A DNA stretch of 64,000 bases. It comes from Verrucomicrobiota bacterium. Lineage in GTDB: Bacteria > Verrucomicrobiota > Verrucomicrobiia > JABWAM01. Positions 3,606 to 55,938 of the stretch are shown one piece after another (position 1 is the first letter of the stretch; each line of letters begins with the position of its first letter). The position numbers and the translations under genes are program-made. The stretch is from positions 11,033 to 75,032 of the forward strand of contig JAHFSY010000006.1 in assembly GCA_023269615.1 (NCBI GenBank). The letters are read 5' to 3'. The notes under the pieces are model-generated. The model was given only the letters and a program-made list of their open reading frames with translations, was not told the origin of the DNA and did no database searches.

Positions 3606-4916
3606 TCAGCCCATGTGCGCGATGATGTTGTCCCCGAACTCCGAACACTTGATTTCCTTCGCGCCCTCCATCTGGCGGGCAAAATCGTAGGTGACTTTTT
3701 TGGAACCGATCGCGCCGTTCAACCCCTTGATGATGAGGCCGGCCGCCTCGGTCCAGCCCATGTAGCGAAACATCATTTCGCCGGAGAGCACGACGGAGCC
3801 AGGGTTCACCTTGTCCTGATTTGCGTATTTGGGTGCGGTGCCGTGCGTGGCCTCGAAGATGGCGTGGCCGGTGAGGTAATTGATGTTGCCGCCGGGCGCG
3901 ATGCCGATCCCGCCCACCTGCGCGGCAAGCGCGTCGCTCAGGTAATCGCCGTTGAGATTGAGCGTGGCAATCACGTCGAAATCTTCCGGGCGCGTGAGCA
4001 CCTGCTGCAACGTGATGTCGGCGATGGCATCCTTGACAAGAATTCTGCCCTCTTTTTGGGCGGCCTTCATCTCCGAGTTGGCGGCTTCCTCGCCCTTGTC
4101 CCTTTTCGTTTGCTCCCAGATTTTCCACGAATAGGTTTCCTTGCCAAATTCACCATCGGCAAGAGCATAACCCCAGTCGCGGAAGGCGCCCTCGGTGAAC
4201 TTCATGATGTTGCCCTTGTGGACAAGCGTCACCGACCTGCGCTTGTTGGCAATCGCATACTGGATGGCGGAGCGGACGAGACGTTCCGTGCCGGGCTTGC
4301 TGACGGGTTTGAGTCCCACGCCAACCTCGACGGGGGATTGCTTCCCGAAGCGGATTTTTTTGAATTCCTTGGGAAACTCCTTTTCGAAAAACGCGAGCAG
4401 CTTGCCCGCTTCAGCTGAACCGGCGGCATACTCGATGCCGGCGTAAATGTCCTCTGTGTTTTCACGGAAGATCACCATCTCCACCTTCTCGGGGCGCTTC
4501 ACAGGGCTGGGCACACCGGTGAAATACTGGACGGGGCGCAGGCACACGTAGAGGTCAAGCATCTGGCGCAGGGCAACATTCAGGGAGCGGATGCCGCCGC
4601 CGACGGGCGTGGAGAGCGGGCCCTTGATGCCAACAAGAAAATCCTTGAACGCTTCCACGGTGTCATCGGGCAGCCAGTTGTCGAATTTCTCCTTCGCCGT
4701 CCCACCCGCAAACACCTCGAACCACGCGACCTTGCGCTTCCCCGCATAGGCCTTTTTCACCGCGGCATCAAACACGCGCTCGCTGGCGGCCCAGATGTCG
4801 GGCCCCGTGCCGTCACCGCGGATGAACGGGATGATCGGTTTGGCAGGTACGGTCAGTTTTCCATTCTTGATTGAGATCTTTTCGCCAGCAGGTGGTGTGA
4901 CAGTGGTGTACGGCAT
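3606..4916 (-). CDS. icd: NADP-dependent isocitrate dehydrogenase
   Basis: 436 aa. Motifs [33 protein letters not shown] and HGTAPKYA are typical of prokaryotic homodimeric IDH. Confidence 0.9.
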
Positions 4917-4950
4917 GGTGGATCAGAGTCGGATGGGTTCGTGTGCGGAT

Positions 4951-5622
4951 TTATTTTTTCATGAAGACGTGGGTTTGGAGCAACCCGGCGATGGAACCGC
5001 CGACGCAGGGACCCACGATGTAGATCCAGAAGTTGGGCCAATACCCGCTGGCCAACGCGGGTCCGAAACTGCGGGCGGGATTGAATGATGCACCTGTCAG
5101 CGGACCGAAGAACATGATGAGCGACGCGAGGCTCAGCCCGATGGCGAGGCCGGCCACATTGCCCGCGGTGCGACCATCCACGGCCGCTCCGAAGATGACG
5201 GTAAAGAAGAGAAACGTACCCATCGCTTCACATAGAAACCCGAGAGCGGGAGTGACGTTGCTTGCCAGAGAGGTGGCGCCAAGGTAGCCGGAGATGGGTC
5301 CCGAGCTGAAGAGCTGCTTCAACATGAACGCTGCCAAAGCCGCACCGATGAGCTGGGCGACGATGTACCCGATGGCATCAATCCAGCCAATCTTGCCGGA
5401 AACCTTCATGGCCACCGTGACGGCTGGGTTGATGTGGATGCCGGAGATGTGACCGAGGGCGTAGATCATGGTGGCGACAGTGAGACCGTGGGCCAGCCCC
5501 ACCGTGACAAGTCCCATGAGGCCAGGCGCGAGAACGCTCTTTTCATTGAGGAGGCAGACCGAGCCCGCCCCGACGAGGATGAGGGCGAAGGTTCCAATCA
5601 GTTCAGCGAGATATTTTTTCAT
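4951..5622 (-). CDS. MIP-family channel (aquaporin/glycerol facilitator)
   Basis: Six hydrophobic segments and two NPA boxes (HINPAVT, SFNPARS). Confidence 0.85.
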   Translation of the reverse strand: MKKYLAELIGTFALILVGAGSVCLLNEKSVLAPGLMGLVTVGLAHGLTVATMIYALGHISGIHINPAVTVAMKVSGKIGWIDAIGYIVAQLIGAALAAFMLKQLFSSGPISGYLGATSLASNVTPALGFLCEAMGTFLFFTVIFGAAVDGRTAGNVAGLAIGLSLASLIMFFGPLTGASFNPARSFGPALASGYWPNFWIYIVGPCVGGSIAGLLQTHVFMKK

Positions 5623-46484: not shown

Positions 46485-46581
46485 GGAGAGTGAAGGGTGC
46501 CTGGTGGCCCTCGCGGTCTTCAAAACCGCCGTCGGCCCGTTTTACGGGGCGAGGTGGGTTCGATTCCCACCCTCTCCGCCA
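46485..46581 (+). tRNA. selC: tRNA-Sec (anticodon UCA)
   Basis: 97 nt. GGAGAG.../...CTCTCC-G-CCA acceptor. Anticodon arm GCGGT-CTTCAAA-ACCGC with anticodon TCA. Long variable arm (GGCCCGTTTTACGGGGC). T-arm GGTGGG-TTCGATT-CCCACC. Sits directly upstream of selD. Confidence 0.9.
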
Positions 46582-46657
46582 TTTTCACCACGGACTTGCG
46601 ATCTTCGAATTCGCAGGGTAATCCAAAATCAGACATTGCCAGAAGGAGGTGATGAAC

Positions 46658-47710
46658 ATGACCCGTGAGCGAATCTTGAAACTGACATCGCTTTCATCCT
46701 GTGCTGGATGAGCTTCAAAACTCAGCCAAAAGGCTCTGGCGCAAGTTTTGCGCCAGCTACCCCGAACGCATGACCGGAACCTGCTGGTGGGCATCGCCAC
46801 CGGCGACGACGCCGGCGTGTATCGCATTGACCGTGACCGGGCGCTGGTCCAGACGGTGGATTTTTTCACGCCCATCGTGGACGACGCATTCTCCTATGGA
46901 CAGATCGCCGCGGCCAACGCCCTCTCGGATGTTTACGCCATGGGTGGCCGTCCGCTCACGGCCATGAATCTCATGGGCGTTCCAACCGACCGTGTTCCTC
47001 CGCGGATCATCAACCAGATTCTGCGCGGCGGCGCGGCCAAGCTCAAGGAGGCGCGCTGTGTCCTTGTCGGCGGCCACACCATCCGCAATCCGGAACCCAT
47101 CTATGGCCTTTCGGTCACCGGCATGGTCTCGCCACGCCGCATGCTGACGAATGCCGCCGCGCGCGCAGGCGACCTGCTGGTGCTCACCAAGCCGCTCGGA
47201 ACCGGGGTGGTCACGACGGGAATCAAACGGGGCATCACATCACGGCCTCTGAAACAAAAGGCCGTTGCCCTCATGTGCCATCTCAATCTGGTCGGGACGG
47301 AGGTTGCCGAGCAGGGGCTTGTCCGCGCGGCAAGCGATGTGACGGGTTTTGGACTGCTTGGCCAGCTTGGAACCATGTGCCGCGCAAGCGGTGTGGGCGC
47401 GGAAGTGTTTGCGGGTTGTGTGCCCGTGATCAGTGATGAAGTGCTTGCCCTCATCTCACGAGAATGCATTCCCGGCGGAACCCGCGACAATCTTGCGCAC
47501 GCCGGCAAATTCGTGAAATGGAACCAAGGCGACGTCCGCTTGAAAATCCTGCTTGCCGACGCTCAAACCAGCGGCGGCCTTCTCCTCTGTGTACCGCCGC
47601 GCCATCTGCCCGCCGTTTTAAAGGTCCTGAAGCGGCATCGTGCGCCATGCGCGGCTGTGATGGGTCGGATCGTGCGCTCGTCGAAACCGATCATTGGGAT
47701 CAGACCATGA
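46658..47710 (+). CDS. selD: selenide, water dikinase SelD, Sec-containing (in-frame TGA at 46709..46711)
   Basis: AGGAGG lies 8 nt before ATG 46658. Translation MTRERILKLTSLSSCAG-U-ASKLSQKAL; U18 aligns with catalytic Cys17 of E. coli SelD (GAGCGCK). Downstream GDDAGVYRI and DFFTPIVDD. The track only shows the part from 46748. Confidence 0.9.
46736..46756 (+). promoter_or_regulatory. SECIS-like hairpin of selD
   Basis: CTGGCGCAA-GTT-TTGCGCCAG, a perfect 9-bp stem, starts 25 nt after the TGA. Confidence 0.6.
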
Positions 47711-49062
47711 AGCCAGCATCCTTGCGCTCCATCCCGGCGGTCGAAAAAGTGCTCCAGGCCCTCGGCACCCACGACCTGTCGCGCCCGGTCGTCGTTGCGG
47801 TTGTCCGACGCGAATTGGCGGCGCTGCGATCATCAAGGAAAGTTCCTGGCCTGGACACCGTCCTCGCCCGCATCCGCCATTCGCTCGAATTCCTGCGTCG
47901 CGCCCGAATCCAGCCTGTTGTGAACGGCACGGGCATTCTCGTCCACACCAACCTGGGCCGTTCGCCGCTCGCGCCGGCGGCGGTCGAAACGCTCACCGCC
48001 ATTGGCTCCAGCTACAACAACGTTGAATACGACCTGTCGGACGGTGAACGCGGCAAGCGCGCTTCCTATCTCGAGCACAATCTCGCCATCCTTTGCAGGG
48101 CCGAGGCTGCCACCGTGGTGAACAACAACGCCGCCGCACTCGTGTTGATCCTGCGGCACCTTTGCGCCGCACCGAAGTGCGACGTGGTGATCTCCCGTGG
48201 CGAACTGGTTCAAATTGGAGGCGAATTTCGAATTCCTGACATTCTTGAGGCAAGCGGCGCGCGTTTGCGGGAGGTGGGCACGACCAACAAGACCTTGATT
48301 TGCGACTATGAAAAAGCCATCCGACGGGAGACCGCGCTGGTCCTGAAGGTCCACCGCAGCAATTTTTTCATGGAAGGTTTTGTCGAGTCACCACCCACGG
48401 AACAAATCGCGGCGCTGGCGCGCAGAAAACGTGTTCCCCTGGTCGAGGATCTTGGCAGCGGGGCGGTGACGGAAACAGAAAAACTGGCTGGACTCGAACA
48501 TGAGCCGACTCCCGCCGAGGTATTGCGGCACGGGGCGGACCTGGTCTGTTTCAGCGGCGACAAACTCCTGGGCGGGCCGCAAGCGGGCATCATTGCCGGA
48601 AATGCGCGACGGGTCGCCGCTCTGAAGCGTGAGCCATTCTTTCGAGCGTTGCGCTGTGACAAGCTGATCCTCTCAGCCCTGCAAACGACCGTGGATCTCC
48701 ACCTCAAGGGTGACTCGCTGGACATCCCGGTGCTGTCCATGTCTGGCATTTCAATGGATGAACTGCGCACCCGCGCGGAACACATCGTGATTGCGCTTGC
48801 GGGTCTTCCCTTGAAGGCCGGCATCGGCGCTGGCCGGGCGCAAATGGGAGGTGGCACGCTCCCGCGGTCGGTGATCCCATCCGTCACCGTCGATCTCACC
48901 CCGGAAAAAGTCGCTCTCCCGGAATTCGCAAAACGCCTGCGTGAAAGCGTTCCGCCCGTCATCGGTTATATTTCGGGCGGACGTTTCAAACTCGACCTGC
49001 GCACGATTTTCCCACGACAGGACCAGGACCTCGTTCGCGCGATTCGACTGCTGAGCTTGTAG
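47707..49062 (+). CDS. selA: L-seryl-tRNA(Sec) selenium transferase
   Basis: ATGA overlap with selD. FSGDKLLGGPQAGIIAG contains the PLP-binding Lys motif. N-terminal MKPASLRSIPAVEKVL is typical. Confidence 0.9.
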   Translation: MKPASLRSIPAVEKVLQALGTHDLSRPVVVAVVRRELAALRSSRKVPGLDTVLARIRHSLEFLRRARIQPVVNGTGILVHTNLGRSPLAPAAVETLTAIGSSYNNVEYDLSDGERGKRASYLEHNLAILCRAEAATVVNNNAAALVLILRHLCAAPKCDVVISRGELVQIGGEFRIPDILEASGARLREVGTTNKTLICDYEKAIRRETALVLKVHRSNFFMEGFVESPPTEQIAALARRKRVPLVEDLGSGAVTETEKLAGLEHEPTPAEVLRHGADLVCFSGDKLLGGPQAGIIAGNARRVAALKREPFFRALRCDKLILSALQTTVDLHLKGDSLDIPVLSMSGISMDELRTRAEHIVIALAGLPLKAGIGAGRAQMGGGTLPRSVIPSVTVDLTPEKVALPEFAKRLRESVPPVIGYISGGRFKLDLRTIFPRQDQDLVRAIRLLSL

Positions 49063-49150
49063 GGGCAAGCGGCATGCCTGCTGTTCCGCTGTAGCCGGGG
49101 TCGTTGACCTCGTGGGGAGTCGCATCTCCGAGTTATCGGCGATCCACGAA

Positions 49151-49174
49151 CTTTTATCGCATATGCGCGAAAAG
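49151..49174. repeat. degenerate copy of the CGACCTTTT..GCATATGC..AAAAGGTCG palindrome (family copy 2)
   Basis: cttttatcgcatatgcgcgaaaag, preceded by atcggcgat as in copy 1. Confidence 0.6.
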
Positions 49175-49222
49175 CTGGTCGGGGCGGCTGCTGGCGCCCT
49201 TGGCATGAACCACCGGAGCCCA

Positions 49223-49256
49223 ACGACCTTTTTGCTCATATGCGCAAAAAGGTCGT
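49223..49256. repeat. 34-nt palindrome ACGACCTTTTTGCTCAT|ATGCGCAAAAAGGTCGT (family copy 3)
   Basis: 17-nt arms with one mismatch. Confidence 0.8.
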
Positions 49257-49482
49257 CGAACCATCGTGGCGAAGGATGATGCCGTGGCGCCAACGACAAC
49301 TCGGAGATGCGCGCCAGTGGGAGGGAGCAGGGCTTCATGCTGGCCCCGGTGCCCCTGCAATTCCAAGAAGTTCCACGGAAGATCGTGTGCGTTACTTTTC
49401 CATCTCACACCCAGAACGAAGGGTGGGTGGAATTGACGCTGTGTTGTGAATGCGGTAGGCTGTTGGGCAAGGAGACAATCCC

Positions 49483-49719
49483 ATGAGCTTGGAAATCACC
49501 ATCGAATATTGCAGCTCTTGAAGCTACGAACCGAAAGCCGTCGGTCTGGCGGAAAAACTTCTGGCGCTCAAGAGGCAGATCGGCTCCGTCAAGTTGATCC
49601 CTTCGGGCGGCGGCGTCTTTGAAATCTGCGTCAATGGAAAAAAGATTTATTCCAAAAAGGAAGCAGGACGGTTTCCCGATTTCGACGCCATTGTCAAAGA
49701 GATCAAGGCCCAGTTGTGA
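49483..49719 (+). CDS. SelW/Rdx-family selenoprotein (in-frame TGA at 49519..49521)
   Basis: Absent from the track. AAGGAGA lies 7 nt before the ATG. Translation MSLEITIEYCSS-U-SYEPKAVGLAEKLLALKRQIGSVKLIPSGGGVFEICVNGKKIYSKKEAGRFPDFDAIVKEIKAQL. CxxU motif plus the GGxFE...GRFP pattern of Rdx proteins. Confidence 0.8.
49538..49552 (+). promoter_or_regulatory. SECIS-like hairpin of the SelW-like gene
   Basis: CCGTC-GGTCT-GGCGG (5 bp including one G-U, GGUCU loop) starts 16 nt after the TGA. Weaker than the others. Confidence 0.4.
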
Positions 49720-49845
49720 CTTTGCCGTTCGGACGGGAGCGCGGGCGTCCCGCCCGCGTTTCAAAACCGATGGCGGGCAGGATGCCCGCCCTCCCGTCCA
49801 CGATGATTGCTTTGGCCCCTTCCTGATCGGTGTCGTTCAAGCTTT

Positions 49846-51876
49846 ATGACCGCCCGCCATTTCATCCTGGCCACTGCAGGCCACGTGGATCACGGCAAGA
49901 GCGCCCTGGTGAAAGCCCTGACCGGCACCGATCCCGATCGGTTGCCCGAGGAGAAGGCGCGGGGCATCACCATTGACCTCGGTTTTGCACATCTGGAATT
50001 GCAAGCGGCAGCGATGAGCAATCAGCGATCAGCAGTCAGCCATCAGCCATCAGCCGACGGTCCACATCCTTCATCCTTCATCCCTCATCCCTCATTCCTC
50101 TCTCTGGGCATCGTGGATGTTCCCGGGCACGAGGATTTTGTCAAAAACATGGTGGCCGGTGTCGGCTCAATCGATCTCGCGTTGCTGGTGGTGGCGGCGG
50201 ATGACGGCTGGATGCCTCAAACCGAGGAACACCTGCAAATTCTCATTCATCTGGGTGTCACGCGAGCCGTGGTCGCGCTCACCAAGATGGACCTGGCGCA
50301 AGGCGACGAAGCGCCGATCGTCGATGCCATCCGCGAAAAATTACGCGGCACGACCATTGCCGATGCCCCGATCATCGGAACCTCCGTGCTCAACGGTCGC
50401 GGCCTTGACGAGCTGAAAGCAGCGCTGGCCCGCGTGCTGGAAGGCGCTCCGTCTCAACCCGACATCGGCAAGCCGCGCCTGCCCGTGGATCGTGTGTTCA
50501 CCTTGCGCGGGGTTGGCACCGTGGTCACCGGCACGCTCACGGGCGGGATCCTCCGTCGTGGCCAGGCGGTGGTGGTCCAGCCTTCCGGCAAAACGGCCCA
50601 CGTCCGCGGCATCCAGAGCCACAACCGTGACGTCGAGTTCATTGGCCCAGGCACGCGCACCGCGTTGAGTCTCCCGGATCTTGCCGTTTCCGTGAAGGGT
50701 CATTCCGCGGTTGGCGACGAAGGTATCCACCGGGGCGATGTCATCACAGGGGCCGATTTCGGTGGGCCAAACACCACGCTGGGAGTGCTTCTGAAAACAT
50801 CGCCCCGTCCGCTGGAGGGCAGGGCGGGGGCGGCGCGCCCGCTCAAGGATGGAACGCTTGTTCACATCCATCATGGAAGCGGCCGTGTTTCGGCGCGCAT
50901 TCATCTGCTGGGCCAAAAGGAGCTAAACGCCGGTCAAGACAGTGTCGCCTTGCTGCATCTCGACACACCCATCTTCGCTTTCGCGGGCGACCGGTTCATC
51001 GTGCGCGACTGGCCGGAGCAACGCACGCTGGCCGGAGGCGTGGTGCTTGACCCCGATGCGGATCAAAAGCATGTCCGTGGCGAAATGCTCCACAAATTTC
51101 TGAAACGGAGGGCGGAAACGCCGGACCAGGCATCTGCTTTTATCATCTCCCAACTCGCGCGTGATGGCACGCTCCAGCGGTCCGCCCTGCTCGTCAAGTC
51201 GAGGTTCAGCGCCGTGGAAATTTCCGATGTCCTCGCGCAACTGTCGAAGGAAGGCAAGGCTGTCTGCTTCGGCGCATGGGCAGCGGATGCCTCATGGTGG
51301 CAAAAGCAACGGCGGATTGCGGTTGAGGCGATCGAAGAAGAGCACCGCGTTCATCCGGAGCGGACGGGATTGTCCCTGAACGCGCTGCGGCAGAAACTGG
51401 GGAGCGACGCTCATTCGACGGATGTGTTTGACGCGATGGTTGACGATCTTTGCAACAAAGACTTCATCCGCGTTGGCGCGGCGATCCGTCGGGTGACTCA
51501 TCGGCCCGCACTCCCGCCGCACCTTCAGGCGGCAGGAGCCAGGGTGCGCTCGGCTCTGGCGGCAAAACCATTTGACCCGCCTTCACGGAAGGAACTGGCA
51601 CCAGACGCCGTCACGCAGCAGGCGCTGCGGTTCCTGCTCGATACCGGTGAAGCAGCCGAGATCGGCGGTGAAGCTGTCCTGCTGGCGGAAAATTTTGCCC
51701 GTGCGACGGCCATCATCAAAAAATTCCTCGTGGATCATCGGGCGGCGACCGTCAGCGAGCTGCGACAGGCGGTTGGAACCAGCCGCAGAATTCTTGTGCC
51801 GTTGCTTGAGCGTCTCGACCGTGAAGGCGTCACGCTGCGCCAGGGCGACCGGCGCGTGCTGCGGCCGGGCCGGTGA
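49846..51876 (+). CDS. selB: selenocysteine-specific elongation factor SelB
   Basis: [19 protein letters not shown] (G1), DVPGHEDF (G3), LTKMD (G4), and C-terminal winged-helix [37 protein letters not shown]. Carries an insertion of about 30 aa encoded by heptamer repeats. Confidence 0.9.
50017..50100. repeat. two tandem heptamer blocks inside selB (ATCAGCN units at 50017..50055; CATCCTT/CATCCCT units at 50064..50100)
   Basis: gagcaatcagcgatcagcagtcagccatcagccatcagcc ... acatccttcatccttcatccctcatccctcattcctc encodes [28 protein letters not shown]. Confidence 0.85.
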
Positions 51877-51896
51877 GCTTCTTGTTAAAAAAACGA

Positions 51897-52035
51897 AGGG
51901 ACACGCTCTCGCCTCGCCGAAGCCTATCCGACTACGCCAAAGCGCTTCGTCGCGACGGCGAGCGGCGTAGCGCGGGCCGTCGTGTCCACCCACGTCACGA
52001 ATGGATCACAAATGGACACGACGGAGCGTGTCCCT
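51897..52035. repeat. nested inverted repeats downstream of selB
   Basis: Outer pair AGGGACACGCTC (51897..51908) / GAGCGTGTCCCT (52024..52035). Inner pair CCGTCGTGTCC (51977..51987) / GGACACGACGG (52014..52024). Confidence 0.65.
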
Positions 52036-52068
52036 CCGTTGCCCTGAGAGAACGATGAAGCAAAGAAT

Positions 52069-53292
52069 TTGGCTTTTGTTCCTCCACGCTTGTGCTATGG
52101 AAGGATCGTGAAACATGGACGATACGCCGTGTGGGTGACGGGGTCCTTTCTCCTTCTGGCCTTCGTGTTTCCACGACATGTCGTGGCAGGTCCTGCCGAG
52201 GAGTATCAGAGCTTGGTGAAGGAATACGATGCCGCCATGCAGGAGTTTTACAAGGTTTATGGCGAGGCCAAGACAGAAGAAGCAAAAGCGAAGGCATATG
52301 AAAAGTGTCCACGGAACGAGAGCTATACCGGTCGTTTTCTTGCGCTGGCCGAAAAACATCCCAAGGAGCCGCTGGCCCTCGACGCGCTCCAATGGGTCAT
52401 CCTTCACACGCAGCATGGCCCAGAGTTCGAGAAGGCGTTAAAAATCATTGCCGACGTCCACATCCAAAATGAAAAAATCGGGCCGATCTGCGAACTGTTG
52501 ACGAATCTCCCGATTCCCATGAGCGAACAACTGCTCCGCGGAATTTTGGAGAAGAACACTTACCACGAAGCCAAAGGCTATGCGGCCTTGAGCCTGGGCC
52601 AATTTCTCAAAAATGAATCCGCCGTGGCTCATTACTTGAAGGAATTGAATCCTGCCTCCCTGGCTGGCCATGAGCGGTATTATGGGAAGGATGGCGTGGA
52701 AAAGATGCTGCACAGCGATCCAAAAAAACTAACCGAGGAAGCCGAGAAATCTTTTGAGCAGGTGATCGAAAAATACGGCGACATCAAGTTCGGTGAACGC
52801 ACTCTTGCTGATTTTGCCAAAGCGGAATTGTTTGAAATCCGCAACCTGACGATTGGCAAGGTGGCGCCGGAAATCGAAGGGGTGGATGTTGATGGCAAGG
52901 CTTTCAAGCTGAGCGACTACCGAGGGAAGGTTGTGGTGCTCGATTTCTGGGGGGATTGGTGAGGCCCCTGCCGGGGCATGTACCCACACGAGCGGTCGCT
53001 CGTGGCACGACTGAAGGACAAACCCTTCGTGATCCTTGGGATCAATAGCGATCCGAAGGAGAATCTCAAGAAGGCGATCGAGCGGGAAAAAATGACCTGG
53101 CGCTCATGGTGGGATGGAGGCAATCCGAACGGTCCGATTGCAAGCAAATGGAACGTCAGTGGCTGGCCGACGGTTTATGTCCTCGATCACAAGGGAGTCA
53201 TCCGCTACAAGGAGGCCGAGCTTGATGAAGCCGTGGACACGCTCCTCAAGGAGCTTGATCAGGAAGCCAAGGTGGACCAAGGGAAGAAATGA
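52069..53292 (+). CDS. exported TlpA/thioredoxin-fold selenoprotein (in-frame TGA at 52960..52962; W-U-G-P-C)
   Basis: Track ORFs 52069..52962 and 52978..53292 share one frame. The junction reads VVVLDFWGDW-U-GPCRGMYPHERSLVARLKDKPFVILGINSD, the TlpA/ResA motif FWAxWCxPC with Sec in place of the first Cys. Signal/anchor segment and a helical N-domain of about 250 aa. Start is TTG 52069 or GTG 52108. Confidence 0.8.
52987..53004 (+). promoter_or_regulatory. SECIS-like hairpin of the TlpA-like gene
   Basis: CACGAGC-GGTC-GCTCGTG, a perfect 7-bp stem with a GGUC loop, starts 25 nt after the TGA. Confidence 0.6.
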
Positions 53293-53300
53293 ATTCTCTT

Positions 53301-54290
53301 TCAGGGAGAAGGTGTTGATCCTTGGGCGACGTTTGCGGCCTTGCGAAGATAGAGCCAGACCCAGCCGTGATATTCCGTGTTTGCACCGGATGAACTGGCA
53401 AAATCGCCGACGAGGAGATCCATGCGACCGTCGCCATTCCAATCGGTCACGCAGATTTTTGCGCGGATGCTCCCTTCGGGAAGTTTTAGAAGAATCACCG
53501 GGGCATCCAGCTTGGGTGCCCCCTTCTCGCCGATGTTGCGAAACCACGACACGCTTCCATCTCCCGCTCCGACAAGAAGGTCTGGTTTCCCGTCTCCGTC
53601 CCAGTCCGTCACACAGGGGCCCGCATCGCCGGAAACCATGAGTTTTCCACTCGGCAGCAGGGGCTGGGCCTGGCCAAAGGCGGGTTTTTCGCGGGTTCCT
53701 TCGTTCGGAATCAAAAACACCTTTCCCTGGATGTTGCCAACCAGAAGATCAAGATCGCCGTCGCCATCCCAATCCACGGAAAAAGGCACGGCAGCCGTCT
53801 GCTTGATCGGACTGCCCTTGGAATCCTTCAAGATTTCGCCCGCGGCGAATTGCCCGTCTGCTTGTTGGCGGAAAAGGTACAGCTCGCCTGGCGAATAGGA
53901 ACCCGTCAAGACATCAGGCTTCCCGTCGTTATCGAAGTCCACAAACTGTGGACTGAAGCCGACGCATCACCCAGTTGGAACTTTGGCGTCCGCGCCCCCG
54001 GCCTTGAGGTAGCTGAAGCTGCCAAAGGAAGGTTTCTCATTGGTGCCTTCGTTCCGGTAGATGCGCAGCCTGCCGCGAAATTCACCCGCGAGCAGGTCGA
54101 ATTTTCCGTCTCCATCAAAATCGGCAACAAAAGGCGCTGCGTGCCCGATCTCGCTGCCGAGATCGATCGGCTTTCCACCCGCCTCGATTTTCACCGGAGC
54201 GGAAAACTCATCGCCAGCTCCCGCAAAGAGCATGCCGGCCGTGAAGGCCAGGCCGAAGGTGCTCAAGAATTGTTTGCTTCCCGGTTTCAT
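53301..54290 (-). CDS. exported FG-GAP/VCBS-repeat protein with in-frame TGA (53967..53969): candidate selenoprotein
   Basis: Track ORFs 53967..54425(-) and 53301..53942(-) are one frame. Read-through gives ...GADAKVPTG-U-CVGFSPQFVDFDNDGKPDVL..., inside one of five D[FW]D(G/N)DG repeat units. Signal peptide MKPGSKQFLSTFGLAFTAGMLFAGA from ATG 54290. Confidence 0.6.
53937..53953 (-). promoter_or_regulatory. SECIS-like hairpin of the FG-GAP gene
   Basis: On the minus strand, GUCCACA-GUU-UGUGGAC is a perfect 7-bp stem starting 14 nt after the TGA. The GUU triloop closed by A-U matches the selD hairpin. Confidence 0.5.
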
Positions 54291-54960: not shown

Positions 54961-55938
54961 TCAGGAACCGTGCGGATCGTTCGTGCGACGGAACGTGAAC
55001 TCGGTTTCCGTCTTCACGGTTTTCCCATCCACTTCGAGAACTGGATAAACCAGGAAATTGATCGCTCCTCCGGCGGGTCCTGGTTCCACGACCAAATCGC
55101 GCCCCGTGCTGAACTCGAAACGGTTGGCGGGATGGTGGCCAAAATAGTAAGCCGCCATTTTTGGATGTTTTGCCGCCTCGCTGATATCGACTGGAATCCA
55201 GCGCCCGTCCGCAAGGAATTCCGCCCAGCAATGATAGCCCCCAATGACCCCGTCGTTCTTGTCGGCCGGAATCGTGGCGCCAATCTCAAAGCGCGCGGGA
55301 ATGCCGGCGGCGCGTGCGAGTGCGATGAAGTAGGCGTGAAAATCCGTGCAGTTTCCGGCCCGGGCTTCGCAGGCATGGACGGCGTCACCATAGCCCCATC
55401 CCGTGCCGCTTTTATCGTAACGCATGCGCTGCCGCACATGGTCGTAAAGCGCCCGCCCACGCTCCAGGTCTCCCTTCTTCCCTCGCACCGCTTCCAGCGC
55501 GAGGCCGCGAAAGGTTTTATTCACCGGCACGAGGTGGTCCGGACGCAGATAACGGGACGGATCGGAAGCCTTGTCATCATCGTAGGAGGTCTTTTCAAGG
55601 CGCTTCACCTGATATGTTACCTCGATGATCCCGTCGCTCTCGTCCGAGCCCGGAGCTAGGAACAGGATGTCATTGCCGTAGTCGCGATCACCCAGCTTTT
55701 TCCACCGCCCTGGAGCCGTGATCTTCTTCACCTTCACGGTCTGGTAGGAATCCGATTTCGCAAGTGGCATCCACAGGCGTCCAGCCCCGGCGATCCTGGG
55801 CAGCTTCACCCGATAGACGAATTCAAACTGGTCGGTTCCGTGCACCATTTCCGACTCGTCCGTCGGAGCGGCTGCGACCGTTTCCATTCGGAAAAGAGAC
55901 AGGAAACCAACGAGGATGAGGGCGTGGGCGACCGACAT
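54961..55938 (-). CDS. exported transglutaminase-like (Cys-protease-fold) protein
   Basis: Signal peptide MSVAHALILVGFLSLFRMETVAAAP. Transglutaminase core GNCTDFHAYFIALARAAGIPARF...GYHCWAEF...WIPVD (Cys-His-Asp). Confidence 0.75.
   Translation of the reverse strand: MSVAHALILVGFLSLFRMETVAAAPTDESEMVHGTDQFEFVYRVKLPRIAGAGRLWMPLAKSDSYQTVKVKKITAPGRWKKLGDRDYGNDILFLAPGSDESDGIIEVTYQVKRLEKTSYDDDKASDPSRYLRPDHLVPVNKTFRGLALEAVRGKKGDLERGRALYDHVRQRMRYDKSGTGWGYGDAVHACEARAGNCTDFHAYFIALARAAGIPARFEIGATIPADKNDGVIGGYHCWAEFLADGRWIPVDISEAAKHPKMAAYYFGHHPANRFEFSTGRDLVVEPGPAGGAINFLVYPVLEVDGKTVKTETEFTFRRTNDPHGS

What the first reader, a model, noticed from the sequence alone, without database searches (positions are those of the whole stretch)
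52069..53292. TlpA/thioredoxin-fold protein with W-U-G-P-C active site, split in the ORF track
ORFs 52069..52962 and 52978..53292 are in the same frame and separated by TGA plus 5 sense codons. Joined, they read KVVVLDFWGDW-U-GPCRGMYPHERSLVARLKDKPFVILGINSD...WPTVYVLDHKGVIRY. This is a textbook TlpA/ResA-type thioredoxin fold in which the first active-site Cys of WCxPC is replaced by the TGA codon. A perfect hairpin CACGAGC-GGUC-GCUCGUG starts 25 nt after the TGA. Thioredoxin-fold UxxC selenoproteins are established in bacteria, so Sec is the most economical reading. The helical N-terminal extension of about 250 aa and the export signal are less usual.
Basis: partly seen in the sequence, partly recalled or inferred. 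Interest (0 to 1): 0.65.

Follow-up and report, generated by a model that had tools for sequence, protein, structure and literature searches.

The report
Selenocysteine TlpA-like oxidoreductase beside sel genes
The two "split" ORFs are one gene for an exported TlpA-type thiol-disulfide oxidoreductase whose first active-site cysteine is selenocysteine (UGA); it sits directly downstream of the selenocysteine machinery genes and belongs to a widespread, usually mis-annotated but already catalogued kind of bacterial selenoprotein.

Summary
ORFs 52069..52962 and 52978..53292 share a frame and are joined by TGA plus five codons, reading ...DFWGDW-U-GPC.... Cys fills the TGA column in 111 of 117 homologues. 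At least 97 species-level genomes, mostly Planctomycetota and Verrucomicrobiota, carry the same in-frame TGA. The hairpin CACGAGC-GGUC-GCUCGUG meets every published bacterial SECIS criterion. Its codons (H-E-R-S-L-V) are frozen at synonymous sites in 64 of 64 Sec-form genes (CGG and TCG 64/64, against 20–24% background), while neighbouring codons vary freely. tRNA-Sec, selD, selA and selB lie immediately upstream. An independent metagenome assembly reproduces the TGA. The N-terminal 250 residues are a confidently modelled helical-repeat domain behind a signal or anchor sequence. UxxC TlpA-like ("thiol-disulfide isomerase-like") selenoproteins have been catalogued since 2005 and were listed for Planctomycetes in 2016, so this is a new member of a known kind. 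Extras: three more in-frame UGA genes lie in the same 8 kb (selD, a SelW-like protein, and an FG-GAP protein with a U-C motif). Cys-form relatives keep a partly decayed SECIS. The selB–tlpA leader is strongly structured and unexplained.

The parts
52108..53292 (+). Complete TlpA-like selenoprotein gene (394 codons from GTG 52108; alternative starts TTG 52069 or GTG 52129); terminal stop TGA 53290-53292
   Evidence: frame continuity. (Pfam AhpC-TSA 78.2, Redoxin 64.6, Thioredoxin_8 49.4 bits, all above cutoff, with U read as C). (full-length homologues).
52108..52191 (+). Signal peptide or N-terminal membrane anchor (MKHGRYAVWVTGSFLLLAFVFPRHVVAG)
   Evidence: Read from the sequence: positive n-region, then a 15-residue hydrophobic core. 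Low pLDDT and a short helix at residues 10-18 in the AF2 model. Homologue consensus has a hydrophobic N-terminus. Cleavage versus anchoring not determined.
52192..52845 (+). All-alpha helical-repeat (TPR-like) N-terminal domain, 12 helices (H29-53 to H233-246)
   Evidence: AF2 with 59-sequence alignment, pLDDT mostly 93-99. Foldseek against PDB gives no significant match (best E 0.05; TPR-type BamD/YbgF and designed helical repeats). No Pfam or NCBIfam hit.
52855..53289 (+). TlpA/ResA-type thioredoxin-fold domain
   Evidence: Pfam residues 262-387. (closest solved structures: 2LRN/4GRF 1.9e-19, DsbE 3GL3, ResA 4NMU, TlpA 1JFU, CycY 1KNG).
52960..52962 (+). UGA decoded as selenocysteine; first residue of the W-U-G-P-C redox motif
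   Evidence: Cys in 111/117 homologues. Same in-frame TGA in at least 97 genomes and twice in one two-module protein. An identical contig from an independent run covers it.
52969..52971 (+). TGC, the resolving Cys of the UxxC motif
   Evidence: nearly invariant column (Cys in over 90% of homologues).
52987..53004 (+). Bacterial SECIS hairpin: 7-bp stem CACGAGC/GCUCGUG, apical loop GGUC, 31 nt between UGA and loop; encodes H-E-R-S-L-V
   Evidence: -10.5 kcal/mol as a bare hairpin. Criteria taken from PMC13188914. Synonymous-site invariance in 64 Sec forms against background codon usage. No variants in about 20 community contigs.
53167..53169 (+). cis-Pro codon of the conserved WPT loop of the thioredoxin fold
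   Evidence: Sequence GWPTVYVLD. P is invariant or nearly invariant in the homologue alignments.
46485..46581 (+). tRNA-Sec (anticodon UCA)
   Evidence: ARAGORN. Rfam RF01852 62.9 bits against gathering score 47.
46652..47710 (+). selD (selenophosphate synthetase), itself with an in-frame UGA at 46709-46711 at the catalytic Cys/Sec position (SSCAG-U-ASK)
   Evidence: TIGR00476 335.9 bits. Upstream frame read. SECIS-type hairpin CUGGCGCAA-GUU-UUGCGCCAG at -13.8 kcal/mol, 33 nt after the UGA.
47704..49062 (+). selA (selenocysteine synthase); its start lies 7 nt before the end of selD, so the two genes overlap
   Evidence: TIGR00474 480 bits, Pfam SelA 391.8 bits.
49483..49719 (+). SelW-like/Rdx protein with CxxU motif (EYCSS-U); UGA at 49519-49521
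   Evidence: Pfam Rdx 72.5 bits. TIGR02174 62.3 bits against cutoff 34.2. Weak hairpin CCGUC-GGUCU-GGCGG at -5.5 kcal/mol.
49846..51876 (+). selB (Sec-specific elongation factor); the ORF opens at TTG 49807, and the ATG at 49846 begins [19 protein letters not shown]
   Evidence: TIGR00475 313 bits against cutoff 242. Pfam SelB beta-barrel and winged-helix domains.
51892..52040 (+). Strongly structured selB-tlpA intergenic leader (nested inverted repeats); function unknown
   Evidence: Fold -95.5 kcal/mol, z = -3.86, 0/200 shuffles as good. Inverted repeats 51892-51908/52024-52040 and 51977-51988/52013-52024. No Rfam hit.
53301..54290 (-). Convergent neighbour: FG-GAP/VCBS-repeat protein with in-frame UGA at 53969-53967 (…KVPTG-U-CVGFSPQF…); a probable further selenoprotein, and a possible (speculative) partner
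   Evidence: Pfam FG-GAP_3 127.9 bits. Cys at the U column in 68 of 82 informative homologues (CC motif). TGA plus the same hairpin GUCCAC-AGUUN-GUGGAC in L115 and L132. Hairpin -10.0 kcal/mol, about 20 nt after the UGA.

Best explanation
52108(52069)..53292 is a single gene. The UGA at 52960 is recoded as selenocysteine by SelB bound to Sec-tRNA(Sec), recruited by the hairpin 52987-53004, a bacterial SECIS lying 31 nt downstream inside the coding sequence. The product is an exported or membrane-anchored protein of about 390 residues: a signal or anchor segment, a helical-repeat (TPR-like) domain of about 220 residues, and a TlpA/ResA-type thioredoxin-fold domain with active site W-U-G-P-C. 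By analogy with CxxC TlpA-family reductases, the selenolate of Sec is the exposed nucleophile. It attacks a substrate disulfide (or sulfenate) to form a mixed selenenylsulfide. The downstream Cys then resolves this into an intramolecular Se-S bond, which a membrane electron relay re-reduces. The helical domain most likely selects the client protein. Shown here: one reading frame; the Cys/Sec pair; the family-wide in-frame TGA; a hairpin that meets the SECIS criteria and is under selection; the complete Sec machinery next door; the TlpA-like fold. Inferred: actual Sec insertion, periplasmic location, reductase direction, the role of the helical domain, and the identity of substrate and reductant.
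For: Frame and motif.
Cys at the TGA column in 111/117 homologues.
A two-module protein has TGA at both active sites.
bSECIS criteria quoted from PMC13188914 are all met: loop 4 nt (allowed 3-9), stem 7 bp (4-16), G in the first loop position followed by G, spacing 31 nt (16-37), -10.5 kcal/mol (<= -7.5). Background rate for such a hairpin is 1.8%.
Synonymous-site freezing in 64 distinct Sec-form genes: CAC 63, GAG 64, CGG 64, TCG 64, CTC 63 of 64. Usage elsewhere in the same genes is CGG 20%, TCG 24%, CTC 36%. Flanking GGN/CCN/GCN/CCN codons and the third base of Val vary freely.
The perfect hairpin is kept in 62/64 Sec forms but only 4/8 Cys forms encoding the same peptide.
tRNA-Sec, selD, selA and selB pass curated cutoffs and end 231 nt upstream.
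An independent run assembles an identical contig across the TGA. About 20 other community contigs vary around the TGA and hairpin but not within them.
Fold assignment. N-domain model.
Against: There is no expression, proteomic or 75Se evidence; only DNA metagenomes hold the sequence. The hairpin sequence encodes a peptide (HERSLV) that is also conserved in Cys forms, and most of the hairpin persists in Cys forms, so part of its conservation may not be due to SECIS function. The Cys control is small (n = 8). The type-A stem shows no covariation because it is invariant. The hairpin starts 24 nt after the UGA, further than the 11 nt I recall for E. coli fdhF, though within the published 16-37 nt range. 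NCBIfam equivalog models for ResA, TlpA and DsbE score well below their cutoffs, so the specific physiological role cannot be transferred. No DsbD/CcdA-type reductant was found among the flanking genes examined.
Confidence: 0.93

Rival explanations
1. The gene is a pseudogene, or the TGA is an assembly or sequencing error: a TGC/TGT Cys codon mutated or misread to TGA, so the protein is truncated and inactive.
For: A single-base change (TGC to TGA) would suffice. Gene callers do split the gene (P0001).
Against: The identical TGA at the identical residue occurs in at least 97 species-level genomes, with intact, conserved downstream reading frames. An independent run reproduces it exactly. The Sec machinery is adjacent. 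The downstream RNA hairpin is under selection.
Confidence: 0.01
2. There are two separately translated proteins: a 284-297-aa helical protein ending at ...DFWGDW, and an independent 104-aa protein starting at ATG 52978.
For: An ATG lies 15 nt after the TGA. This arrangement appears in automated annotation here and in L001 and the P0106 contig.
Against: The ATG encodes an internal conserved Met of Cys-form homologues. No Shine-Dalgarno-like sequence precedes it (ggcccctgccggggcATG). Neither half would contain a complete thioredoxin fold: beta1 and the active site are split from the cis-Pro loop. In some Sec forms the codon at that position is not Met (Leu, Gln or Thr in 4 of 64).
Confidence: 0.02
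3. The UGA is read through, but by something other than Sec (near-cognate Trp or Cys, or a suppressor tRNA), or the organism uses a code in which UGA is a sense codon.
For: Two database homologues show W or R at this column (P0076 WWGPC, P0009 WRGPC). These could be alternative-code translations or point mutants.
Against: UGA terminates selB, selW-like and this gene itself. A dedicated tRNA-Sec with selA, selB and selD is adjacent. The aligned residue is the catalytic Cys, the classic Cys/Sec pair. A hairpin meeting the SECIS criteria sits at the correct distance.
Confidence: 0.03

Closest known systems
'Thiol-disulfide isomerase-like protein' selenoprotein family (cd02966 TlpA-like, UxxC). 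Predicted from the Sargasso Sea metagenome (PMC1088965) and listed in the 2026 catalogue (PMC13188914, Table 1). 'Thiol-disulfide isomerase-like thioredoxin' candidates were listed for Planctomycetes P1 in PMC4807772, Table S9.
   Same: TlpA-like thioredoxin fold. Sec replaces the first Cys of CxxC (UxxC). Cys homologues are widespread. Annotated as two adjacent genes. Occurs in Planctomycetes, with Singulisphaera Cys homologues as nearest hits.
   Different: I could not retrieve the exemplar sequences (for example MGB1650493.1), so whether they share the 250-aa helical N-domain, the W-U-G-P-C...PHERSLV motif and this SECIS is untested. Two of the 2016 Planctomycetes candidates were reported without a detectable SECIS, whereas a clear one is present here.
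Bradyrhizobium TlpA, Bacillus ResA, CcmG/DsbE and CycY: periplasmic CxxC reductases for cytochrome c, cytochrome oxidase and copper-chaperone maturation.
   Same: Same fold and the same WCxPC-type active-site position. N-terminal export or anchor segment. Closest solved structures by sequence.
   Different: Sec replaces the nucleophilic Cys. An extra helical-repeat domain of about 220 aa lies between the anchor and the Trx domain. Scores are far below the NCBIfam equivalog cutoffs (ResA 63 vs 170; TlpA 48 vs 230; DsbE 44 vs 123). No cytochrome-maturation genes were found among the neighbours examined.
'Prx-like thiol:disulfide oxidoreductase' selenoprotein (PF00578, UxxC/UxxU; Kryukov and Gladyshev 2004, as listed in PMC13188914).
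   Same: Best Pfam hit here is also PF00578 AhpC-TSA (78.2 bits). UxxC motif.
   Different: Architecture and taxonomy may differ, as the exemplar is from Geobacter. Not compared directly.
[quoted passage not shown]
   Same: TlpA-like fold containing Sec.
   Different: The motif is U-G-C, not U-G-P-C. Score is 35 bits against a cutoff of 300. Not a member.
E. coli fdhF-type bacterial SECIS and the general bSECIS model (PMC13188914, Fig 2).
   Same: Intragenic hairpin just 3' of the UGA with a small apical loop starting G-G/U. The GGUC loop here resembles the GGUC core of the fdhF loop (from my memory of fdhF, not tested here).
   Different: The stem begins 24 nt after the UGA, not about 11 nt. 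There is no bulged U. The element is embedded in, and co-evolved with, a conserved peptide motif (HERSLV).

Membership tests
Bacterial selenoprotein gene (SelB/SECIS-dependent UGA recoding) | In-frame UGA aligned to Cys in homologues (Cys/Sec pair) | tested here: met
   Cys in 111/117 aligned homologues.
Bacterial selenoprotein gene (SelB/SECIS-dependent UGA recoding) | Other organisms have UGA-containing orthologues with a conserved downstream frame | tested here: met
   At least 97 in-frame cases in species-representative genomes. L001 has a double-Sec protein.
Bacterial selenoprotein gene (SelB/SECIS-dependent UGA recoding) | bSECIS: loop 3-9 nt, stem 4-16 bp, G in the first two loop positions, 16-37 nt from the UGA, MFE <= -7.5 kcal/mol (PMC13188914) | tested here: met
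   Loop GGUC (4 nt), 7-bp stem, spacing 31 nt, -10.5 kcal/mol. Synonymous sites frozen. bSECISearch itself was not run.
Bacterial selenoprotein gene (SelB/SECIS-dependent UGA recoding) | Genome encodes tRNA-Sec, SelA, SelB and SelD | tested here: met
   All four lie within 46485-51876, above curated cutoffs.
Bacterial selenoprotein gene (SelB/SECIS-dependent UGA recoding) | Selenium physically present in the protein (75Se labelling or MS) | not testable with these tools
   Only DNA metagenomes are available.
TlpA-like thioredoxin-fold superfamily (cd02966; Pfam AhpC-TSA/Redoxin/Thioredoxin_8) | Domain model match above the curated threshold | tested here: met
   AhpC-TSA 78.2 vs 26; Redoxin 64.6 vs 26.6; Thioredoxin_8 49.4 vs 27. 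PDB hits to TlpA, ResA and DsbE. The cd02966 model itself was not available.
TlpA-like thioredoxin-fold superfamily (cd02966; Pfam AhpC-TSA/Redoxin/Thioredoxin_8) | W-C/U-x-x-C active site at the N-terminus of helix alpha1, and a cis-Pro loop | tested here: met
   W-U-G-P-C at 52957-52971 and GWPT at 53161-53172, in conserved columns.
ResA, TlpA or DsbE/CcmG orthologue (NCBIfam equivalogs/subfamilies) | Score above the curated family cutoff | tested here: not met
   ResA 63.1 vs 170; TlpA 48.3 vs 230; DsbE 43.6 vs 123; StoA 28.9 vs 210.
ResA-like WAxxUGC selenoprotein (NF041054) | WAxxUGC motif and model score >= 300 | tested here: not met
   35.3 bits. The motif here is FWGDWUGPC.
Peroxiredoxin (Prx) selenoprotein | PxxxTxxC/U peroxidatic motif | tested here: not met
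   The active site is a thioredoxin-type UxxC with no TxxU/C context. The Pfam AhpC-TSA hit reflects the shared fold only.

The most novel reading that the evidence does not exclude
The locus may be a compact 'selenium island' containing four UGA-Sec genes (selD, selW-like, tlpA-like, and an FG-GAP/VCBS protein with a vicinal U-C motif) and a structured RNA leader. Three less ordinary readings remain open. (1) The FG-GAP G-U-C-[VI]-G-F protein represents a selenoprotein family absent from the 2026 catalogue. Only ASPIC/UnbV-type FG-GAP candidates appear in a 2016 supplementary table. It may be a redox partner or client of the convergent TlpA-U protein, an adjacency seen again in L115. (2) The PVC helical-TlpA family is ancestrally Sec-encoding and has undergone repeated Sec-to-Cys reversions that leave 'fossil' SECIS hairpins. 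This would run against the stated view that Sec-to-Cys change is rare in bacteria. (3) The structured selB-tlpA leader is a regulatory RNA that couples expression to selenium or SelB status.
Probability: 0.3. Interest if true: 0.6.

Novelty: new member of a known kind. Interest (0 to 1): 0.38.

Why it matters
For this gene, the practical point is annotation. A large PVC-group family of exported thiol-disulfide oxidoreductases is routinely split into a "hypothetical protein" and a short thioredoxin fragment. The invariant 18-nt SECIS (CACGAGCGGUCGCUCGUG, encoding HERSLV) is a simple, specific search key for these genes. It is also a clean natural example of one sequence serving as both a conserved peptide and an RNA signal. 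Direct linkage of the gene to tRNA-Sec, selD, selA and selB, with further UGA genes interleaved, makes this locus a convenient self-contained cassette for testing Sec insertion from an uncultured lineage in a heterologous host. Persistence of the hairpin in Cys forms gives a handle on the direction and frequency of Sec/Cys exchange in bacteria.

Tried and rejected
1. Metagenome-wide scan for Cys-form genes encoding WCGPCRAMYPHE, intended as a large codon control. It returned only 2 loci, neither encoding HERSLV. I fell back on 8 Cys-form loci fetched one at a time, so the control is small.
2. Cys-form paralogues within the 120 fetched loci: essentially none.
3. Synteny of tlpA-U with sel genes in other genomes: 0 of 95 loci. 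The linkage is specific to this window, so it supports Sec competence but not a conserved operon.
Only the N-terminal ORF was modelled, so domain packing is unknown.
5. Foldseek of the N-domain against PDB: no significant hit. "TPR-like" describes the shape and is not a family assignment.
6. Rfam at gathering and at E<=1: nothing except tRNA-Sec.
7. Promoter and terminator scan between selB and the gene: no plus-strand signals. Co-transcription is unresolved.
8. RNA-seq evidence: no RNA runs hold the sequence.
9. A permissive window-wide scan for in-frame TGA with redox-like context was mostly noise, with 312 hits. Only 46709, 49519, 52960 and 53969 (minus strand) stood up.
10. A frame slip on my part (52110 instead of 52108) was corrected.
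11. Whole-region folding free energy is not significant, so I do not use it as evidence.
12. Considered and rejected: a code 4/25 reassignment, because TGA terminates neighbouring genes, and a peroxiredoxin assignment, because the motif is wrong.
Full report
OBSERVATION. ORF 52069..52962 (+) ends with TGA at 52960-52962. ORF 52978..53292 is in the same frame, and the 15 intervening bases encode G-P-C-R-G. The joined product reads ...GKVVVLDFWGDW-[TGA]-GPCRGMYPHERSLVARLKDKPFVILGINSD...GWPTVYVLDHKGVIRY.... The hairpin CACGAGC-GGUC-GCUCGUG lies at 52987-53004. With U read as C, the protein hits Pfam AhpC-TSA (78.2 bits), Redoxin (64.6) and Thioredoxin_8 (49.4), all above threshold. Its closest solved relatives are periplasmic TlpA/ResA/DsbE/CycY-type oxidoreductases (2LRN/4GRF at 1.9e-19).

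GENOMIC CONTEXT. A tRNA-Sec gene lies at 46485-46581 (ARAGORN; Rfam RF01852 62.9 bits). It is followed on the same strand by selD (TIGR00476, 336 bits), selA (TIGR00474, 480 bits) and selB (TIGR00475, 313 bits). selB ends at 51876, 231 nt before the candidate's most likely start. TGA is still an ordinary stop here: it ends selB, the SelW-like gene and the candidate itself. A reassigned code is therefore excluded.

CYS/SEC PAIR. A search of 5.8 billion proteins returned 2897 hits at E<=1e-10. The top hits are about 400-aa proteins covering 86-94% of the query, so they include the N-terminal extension. Those with source names are called TlpA-family proteins from Planctomycetota such as Paludisphaera, Singulisphaera and Gemmataceae. 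In a MAFFT alignment of the best 120, the TGA column is Cys in 111 of 117 informative sequences, most often as WCGPC. Three entries stop at exactly ...DFWG[DH]W: the window's own product and two others (P0015, P0106).

INDEPENDENT TGA ORTHOLOGUES. The contig encoding P0015 (L001) carries a two-module version of the protein, with TGA at the W-x-G-P-C position of both modules. A DNA-pattern scan of one genome per GTDB species for W-G-x-W-TGA-G-P-C stopped at its 120-locus limit. Of these, 97 are in-frame thioredoxin-fold read-throughs with long upstream and roughly 100-aa downstream frames. They come overwhelmingly from Planctomycetota and Verrucomicrobiota MAGs, plus the cultured Rohdeia mirabilis Pla163. 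Pseudogene and sequencing-error readings are therefore untenable. In addition, an independent run from the same groundwater study assembles a 706-nt contig identical to the window across the TGA. About 20 other community contigs align only over 52903-53007. They vary at 52936-52956, 52968 and 52976 but show no listed difference at the TGA or in the hairpin.

SECIS. The published bacterial SECIS model requires a 3-9 nt apical loop, a 4-16 bp stem, a G in the first two loop positions, 16-37 nt between the UGA and the loop, and MFE <= -7.5 kcal/mol (PMC13188914). The hairpin here has a 4-nt loop (GGUC), a 7-bp stem, 31 nt spacing and -10.5 kcal/mol. Only 1.8% of the 2109 TGA trinucleotides in the window are followed by an equally good simple hairpin.

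The hairpin is made of the codons for H-E-R-S-L-V (CAC GAG CGG UCG CUC GUG), a peptide that is also conserved in Cys forms. Protein conservation therefore had to be separated from RNA conservation. In 64 distinct Sec-form genes encoding HERSLV, the codons are CAC 63/64, GAG 64/64, CGG 64/64, TCG 64/64 and CTC 63/64. The third base of Val, which lies at the stem end, is free (GTG 44, GTA 7, GTT 7, GTC 6). The flanking Gly, Pro, Ala and Pro codons use three or four synonymous codons each. Elsewhere in the same 64 genes, CGG is 20% of Arg codons, TCG 24% of Ser and CTC 36% of Leu. This is selection on RNA and not codon bias.

Among eight Cys-form genes encoding the same peptide, the exact hairpin survives in four. 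It is broken by synonymous changes in the other four (CGC...CTA; GAA; CTG twice). The comparison is 62/64 intact against 4/8 intact. The direction fits relaxation after loss of Sec, but the sample is small.

Other Sec-form subfamilies (PHEK[STA]LV.R) lack this hairpin. They have a shifted one, NCGC-UCGUGAA-GCGN, whose stem covaries: GUCGC/GCGAC, GACGC/GCGUC, GGCGC/GCGCC, AGCGC/GCGCU. That is what one expects if a SECIS of some kind is needed after each of these UGAs.

PROTEIN ARCHITECTURE AND LIKELY MECHANISM. The best start is GTG 52108, giving MKHGRYAVWVTGSFLLLAFVFPRHVVAG-: a positively charged n-region followed by a hydrophobic core. TTG 52069 and GTG 52129 remain possible. An AlphaFold2 model of the window's own N-terminal ORF, built with 58 homologues, is confident (mean pLDDT 90.8, pTM 0.83). 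It shows 12 helices between residues 29 and 246, followed by the first strands of the thioredoxin domain. Foldseek against PDB finds only insignificant similarity to TPR-type proteins (BamD, YbgF) and designed helical repeats, so this is a helical-repeat domain of unassigned family.

I infer an exported or anchored oxidoreductase. In it the Sec selenolate attacks client disulfides, and Cys in U-G-P-C resolves the mixed selenenylsulfide. The helical domain provides client recognition. The scores against ResA, TlpA and DsbE equivalog models are far below cutoff, and the neighbours give no client or reductant. Those neighbours are a KH-domain protein, a secretin-like protein, an APH-type kinase, a cNMP/FHA protein, a transglutaminase-like protein and an unknown 613-aa protein.

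COMPARISON WITH WHAT IS KNOWN. UxxC selenoproteins of the TlpA-like fold are already catalogued. [quoted passage not shown] A 2016 analysis of Planctomycetes genomes lists "thiol-disulfide isomerase-like thioredoxin" selenoprotein candidates annotated as two genes, with Singulisphaera Cys homologues (PMC4807772, Table S9). The same paper notes a Planctomycetes sel operon accompanied by a Transglut_core gene. This window also has such a gene, at 54961..55938 on the minus strand. The window's gene is not the WAxxUGC family (35 vs 300 bits). I therefore rate it a new member of a known kind. No NCBIfam model specific to this W-U-G-P-C subfamily matched, which is consistent with its systematic mis-annotation.

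SIDE FINDINGS.
(a) selD has an in-frame UGA at 46709-46711 at the catalytic position (SSCAG-U-ASK), with a -13.8 kcal/mol hairpin 33 nt downstream. This is a known phenomenon.
(b) Between selA and selB lies a 78-codon SelW-like/Rdx gene (49483-49719) with C-S-S-U (Pfam Rdx 72.5 bits; TIGR02174 62.3 bits).
(c) An FG-GAP/VCBS-repeat gene (54290..53301, minus strand) is convergent with the candidate, and the ends of the two genes are 8 nt apart. It has an in-frame UGA at 53969-53967, in ...KVPTG-U-CVGFSPQFVDFDNDG.... Homologues carry a vicinal CC motif, with Cys at the U column in 68 of 82 informative sequences, and many database entries are fragments that restart just after this point. Two further genomes have TGA at the same place followed by the same hairpin GUCCAC-AGUUN-GUGGAC (L115, 39% identity, next to its own tlpA-U gene; and L132). 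The 2026 catalogue has no FG-GAP or VCBS entry, and full-text searches found nothing relevant. [quoted passage not shown] The U-C/CC form may be distinct.
(d) The selB-tlpA leader (51892-52040) folds at -95.5 kcal/mol for the 234-nt intergenic stretch (z = -3.86, 0/200 shuffles as good). It has nested inverted repeats, no Rfam match and no copies elsewhere in the window. It is unexplained.
(e) A crude NJ tree of 97 Sec and 111 Cys thioredoxin domains needs at least 8 Sec/Cys changes. One Cys form with an intact hairpin (P0097/L129) has only Sec forms as nearest neighbours. This hints at Sec-to-Cys reversion with a fossil SECIS. The review describes such reversion as rare in bacteria.

VERDICT. 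The probability that this is a genuine Sec-encoding TlpA-like gene is about 0.93. The remaining uncertainty is the lack of any protein-level evidence. Interest is moderate to low for the finding itself (0.38). The neighbourhood, especially the FG-GAP U-C gene, the fossil SECIS pattern and the structured leader, is more interesting than the assigned gene.

Noticed in passing
window 46652-47710 (+), UGA at 46709-46711: selD is itself a probable selenoprotein: an in-frame TGA at the catalytic Cys/Sec position (LTSLSSCAG-U-ASKLSQKAL), with hairpin CUGGCGCAA-GUU-UUGCGCCAG at -13.8 kcal/mol, 33 nt downstream. The ORF track shows only the part after the TGA.
   Followed up: partly
window 49483-49719 (+), UGA at 49519-49521: An unannotated 78-codon SelW-like/Rdx gene with a CxxU motif (EYCSS-U) lies between selA and selB (Pfam Rdx 72.5 bits; TIGR02174 62.3 bits). 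Its best SECIS-type hairpin is weak (-5.5 kcal/mol).
   Followed up: partly
window 53301-54290 (-), UGA at 53969-53967; also L115 about 3831-4960 and L132 149-1177: An FG-GAP/VCBS-repeat protein is split by an in-frame TGA (…KVPTG-U-CVGFSPQF…). Homologues have a vicinal CC motif (Cys at the U column in 68/82). Two other genomes share the TGA and the hairpin GUCCAC-AGUUN-GUGGAC. It is not in the 2026 selenoprotein catalogue; only ASPIC/UnbV-type FG-GAP candidates appear in a 2016 supplementary table. It is convergent with the tlpA-U gene here and adjacent to one in L115.
   Followed up: partly
window 51892-52040 (+): The selB-tlpA intergenic leader is very strongly structured (234-nt stretch folds at -95.5 kcal/mol, z = -3.86). 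It has nested inverted repeats 51892-51908/52024-52040 and 51977-51988/52013-52024, no Rfam match, and no dispersed copies. Function unknown.
   Followed up: partly
L001 676-2922 (+): A two-module homologue (two helical domains and two TlpA domains in one 748-codon frame) has TGA at both W-U-G-P-C sites and identical SECIS hairpins. This is a double-Sec protein called as three genes.
   Followed up: partly
L124-L131 (Cys-form homologues): Cys-form genes encoding ...PHERSLV keep most or all of the SECIS hairpin at synonymous sites: 4/8 exact and 4/8 with one or two synonymous breaks. Sec and Cys forms are interleaved on a crude tree. This suggests fossil SECIS elements after Sec-to-Cys change, or a hairpin that predates Sec.
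   Followed up: partly
L007, L028, L050, L054, L059, L067, L071, L107, L113, L115 (Sec forms with PHEK[STA]LV.R): A second SECIS architecture in the same family: a hairpin shifted about 9 nt downstream, NCGC-UCGUGAA-GCGN, with visibly covarying stem pairs. Further subfamilies (GTW-U-GPC...VP[HK]LKEL and EFWG[YFH]W-U-GPC..GSLP) have other downstream sequences.
   Followed up: no
P0076 (WWGPC), P0009 (WRGPC), P0011 and P0032 (WSGPC/WSNAC): A few database homologues have W, R or S at the Sec/Cys column. W and R are one base away from TGA (TGG, CGA). These could be alternative-code translations of TGA, point mutants or inactive forms.
   Followed up: no
window 54961-55938 (-): A transglutaminase-like (Transglut_core, 93.8 bits) gene lies next to the sel/selenoprotein cluster. 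A Transglut_core gene was also drawn beside the unusual sel operon of a Rhodopirellula-like planctomycete (PMC4807772, Fig 6).
   Followed up: no
window 52056-52109 (+): A short 17-codon ORF (ATG 52056, MKQRIWLLFLHACAMEGS*) lies in another frame and overlaps the start region of the tlpA-like gene. It looks like the start of a signal peptide, so a frameshift or a uORF cannot be excluded. The true start of the main gene is unresolved.
   Followed up: no
window 49807-51876 (+), residues about 66-100 of the ORF: SelB carries an insertion of about 30 residues of low complexity ([33 protein letters not shown]) inside the GTPase domain. The TIGR00475 match is reported in two stretches, the best starting at residue 91.
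   Followed up: no
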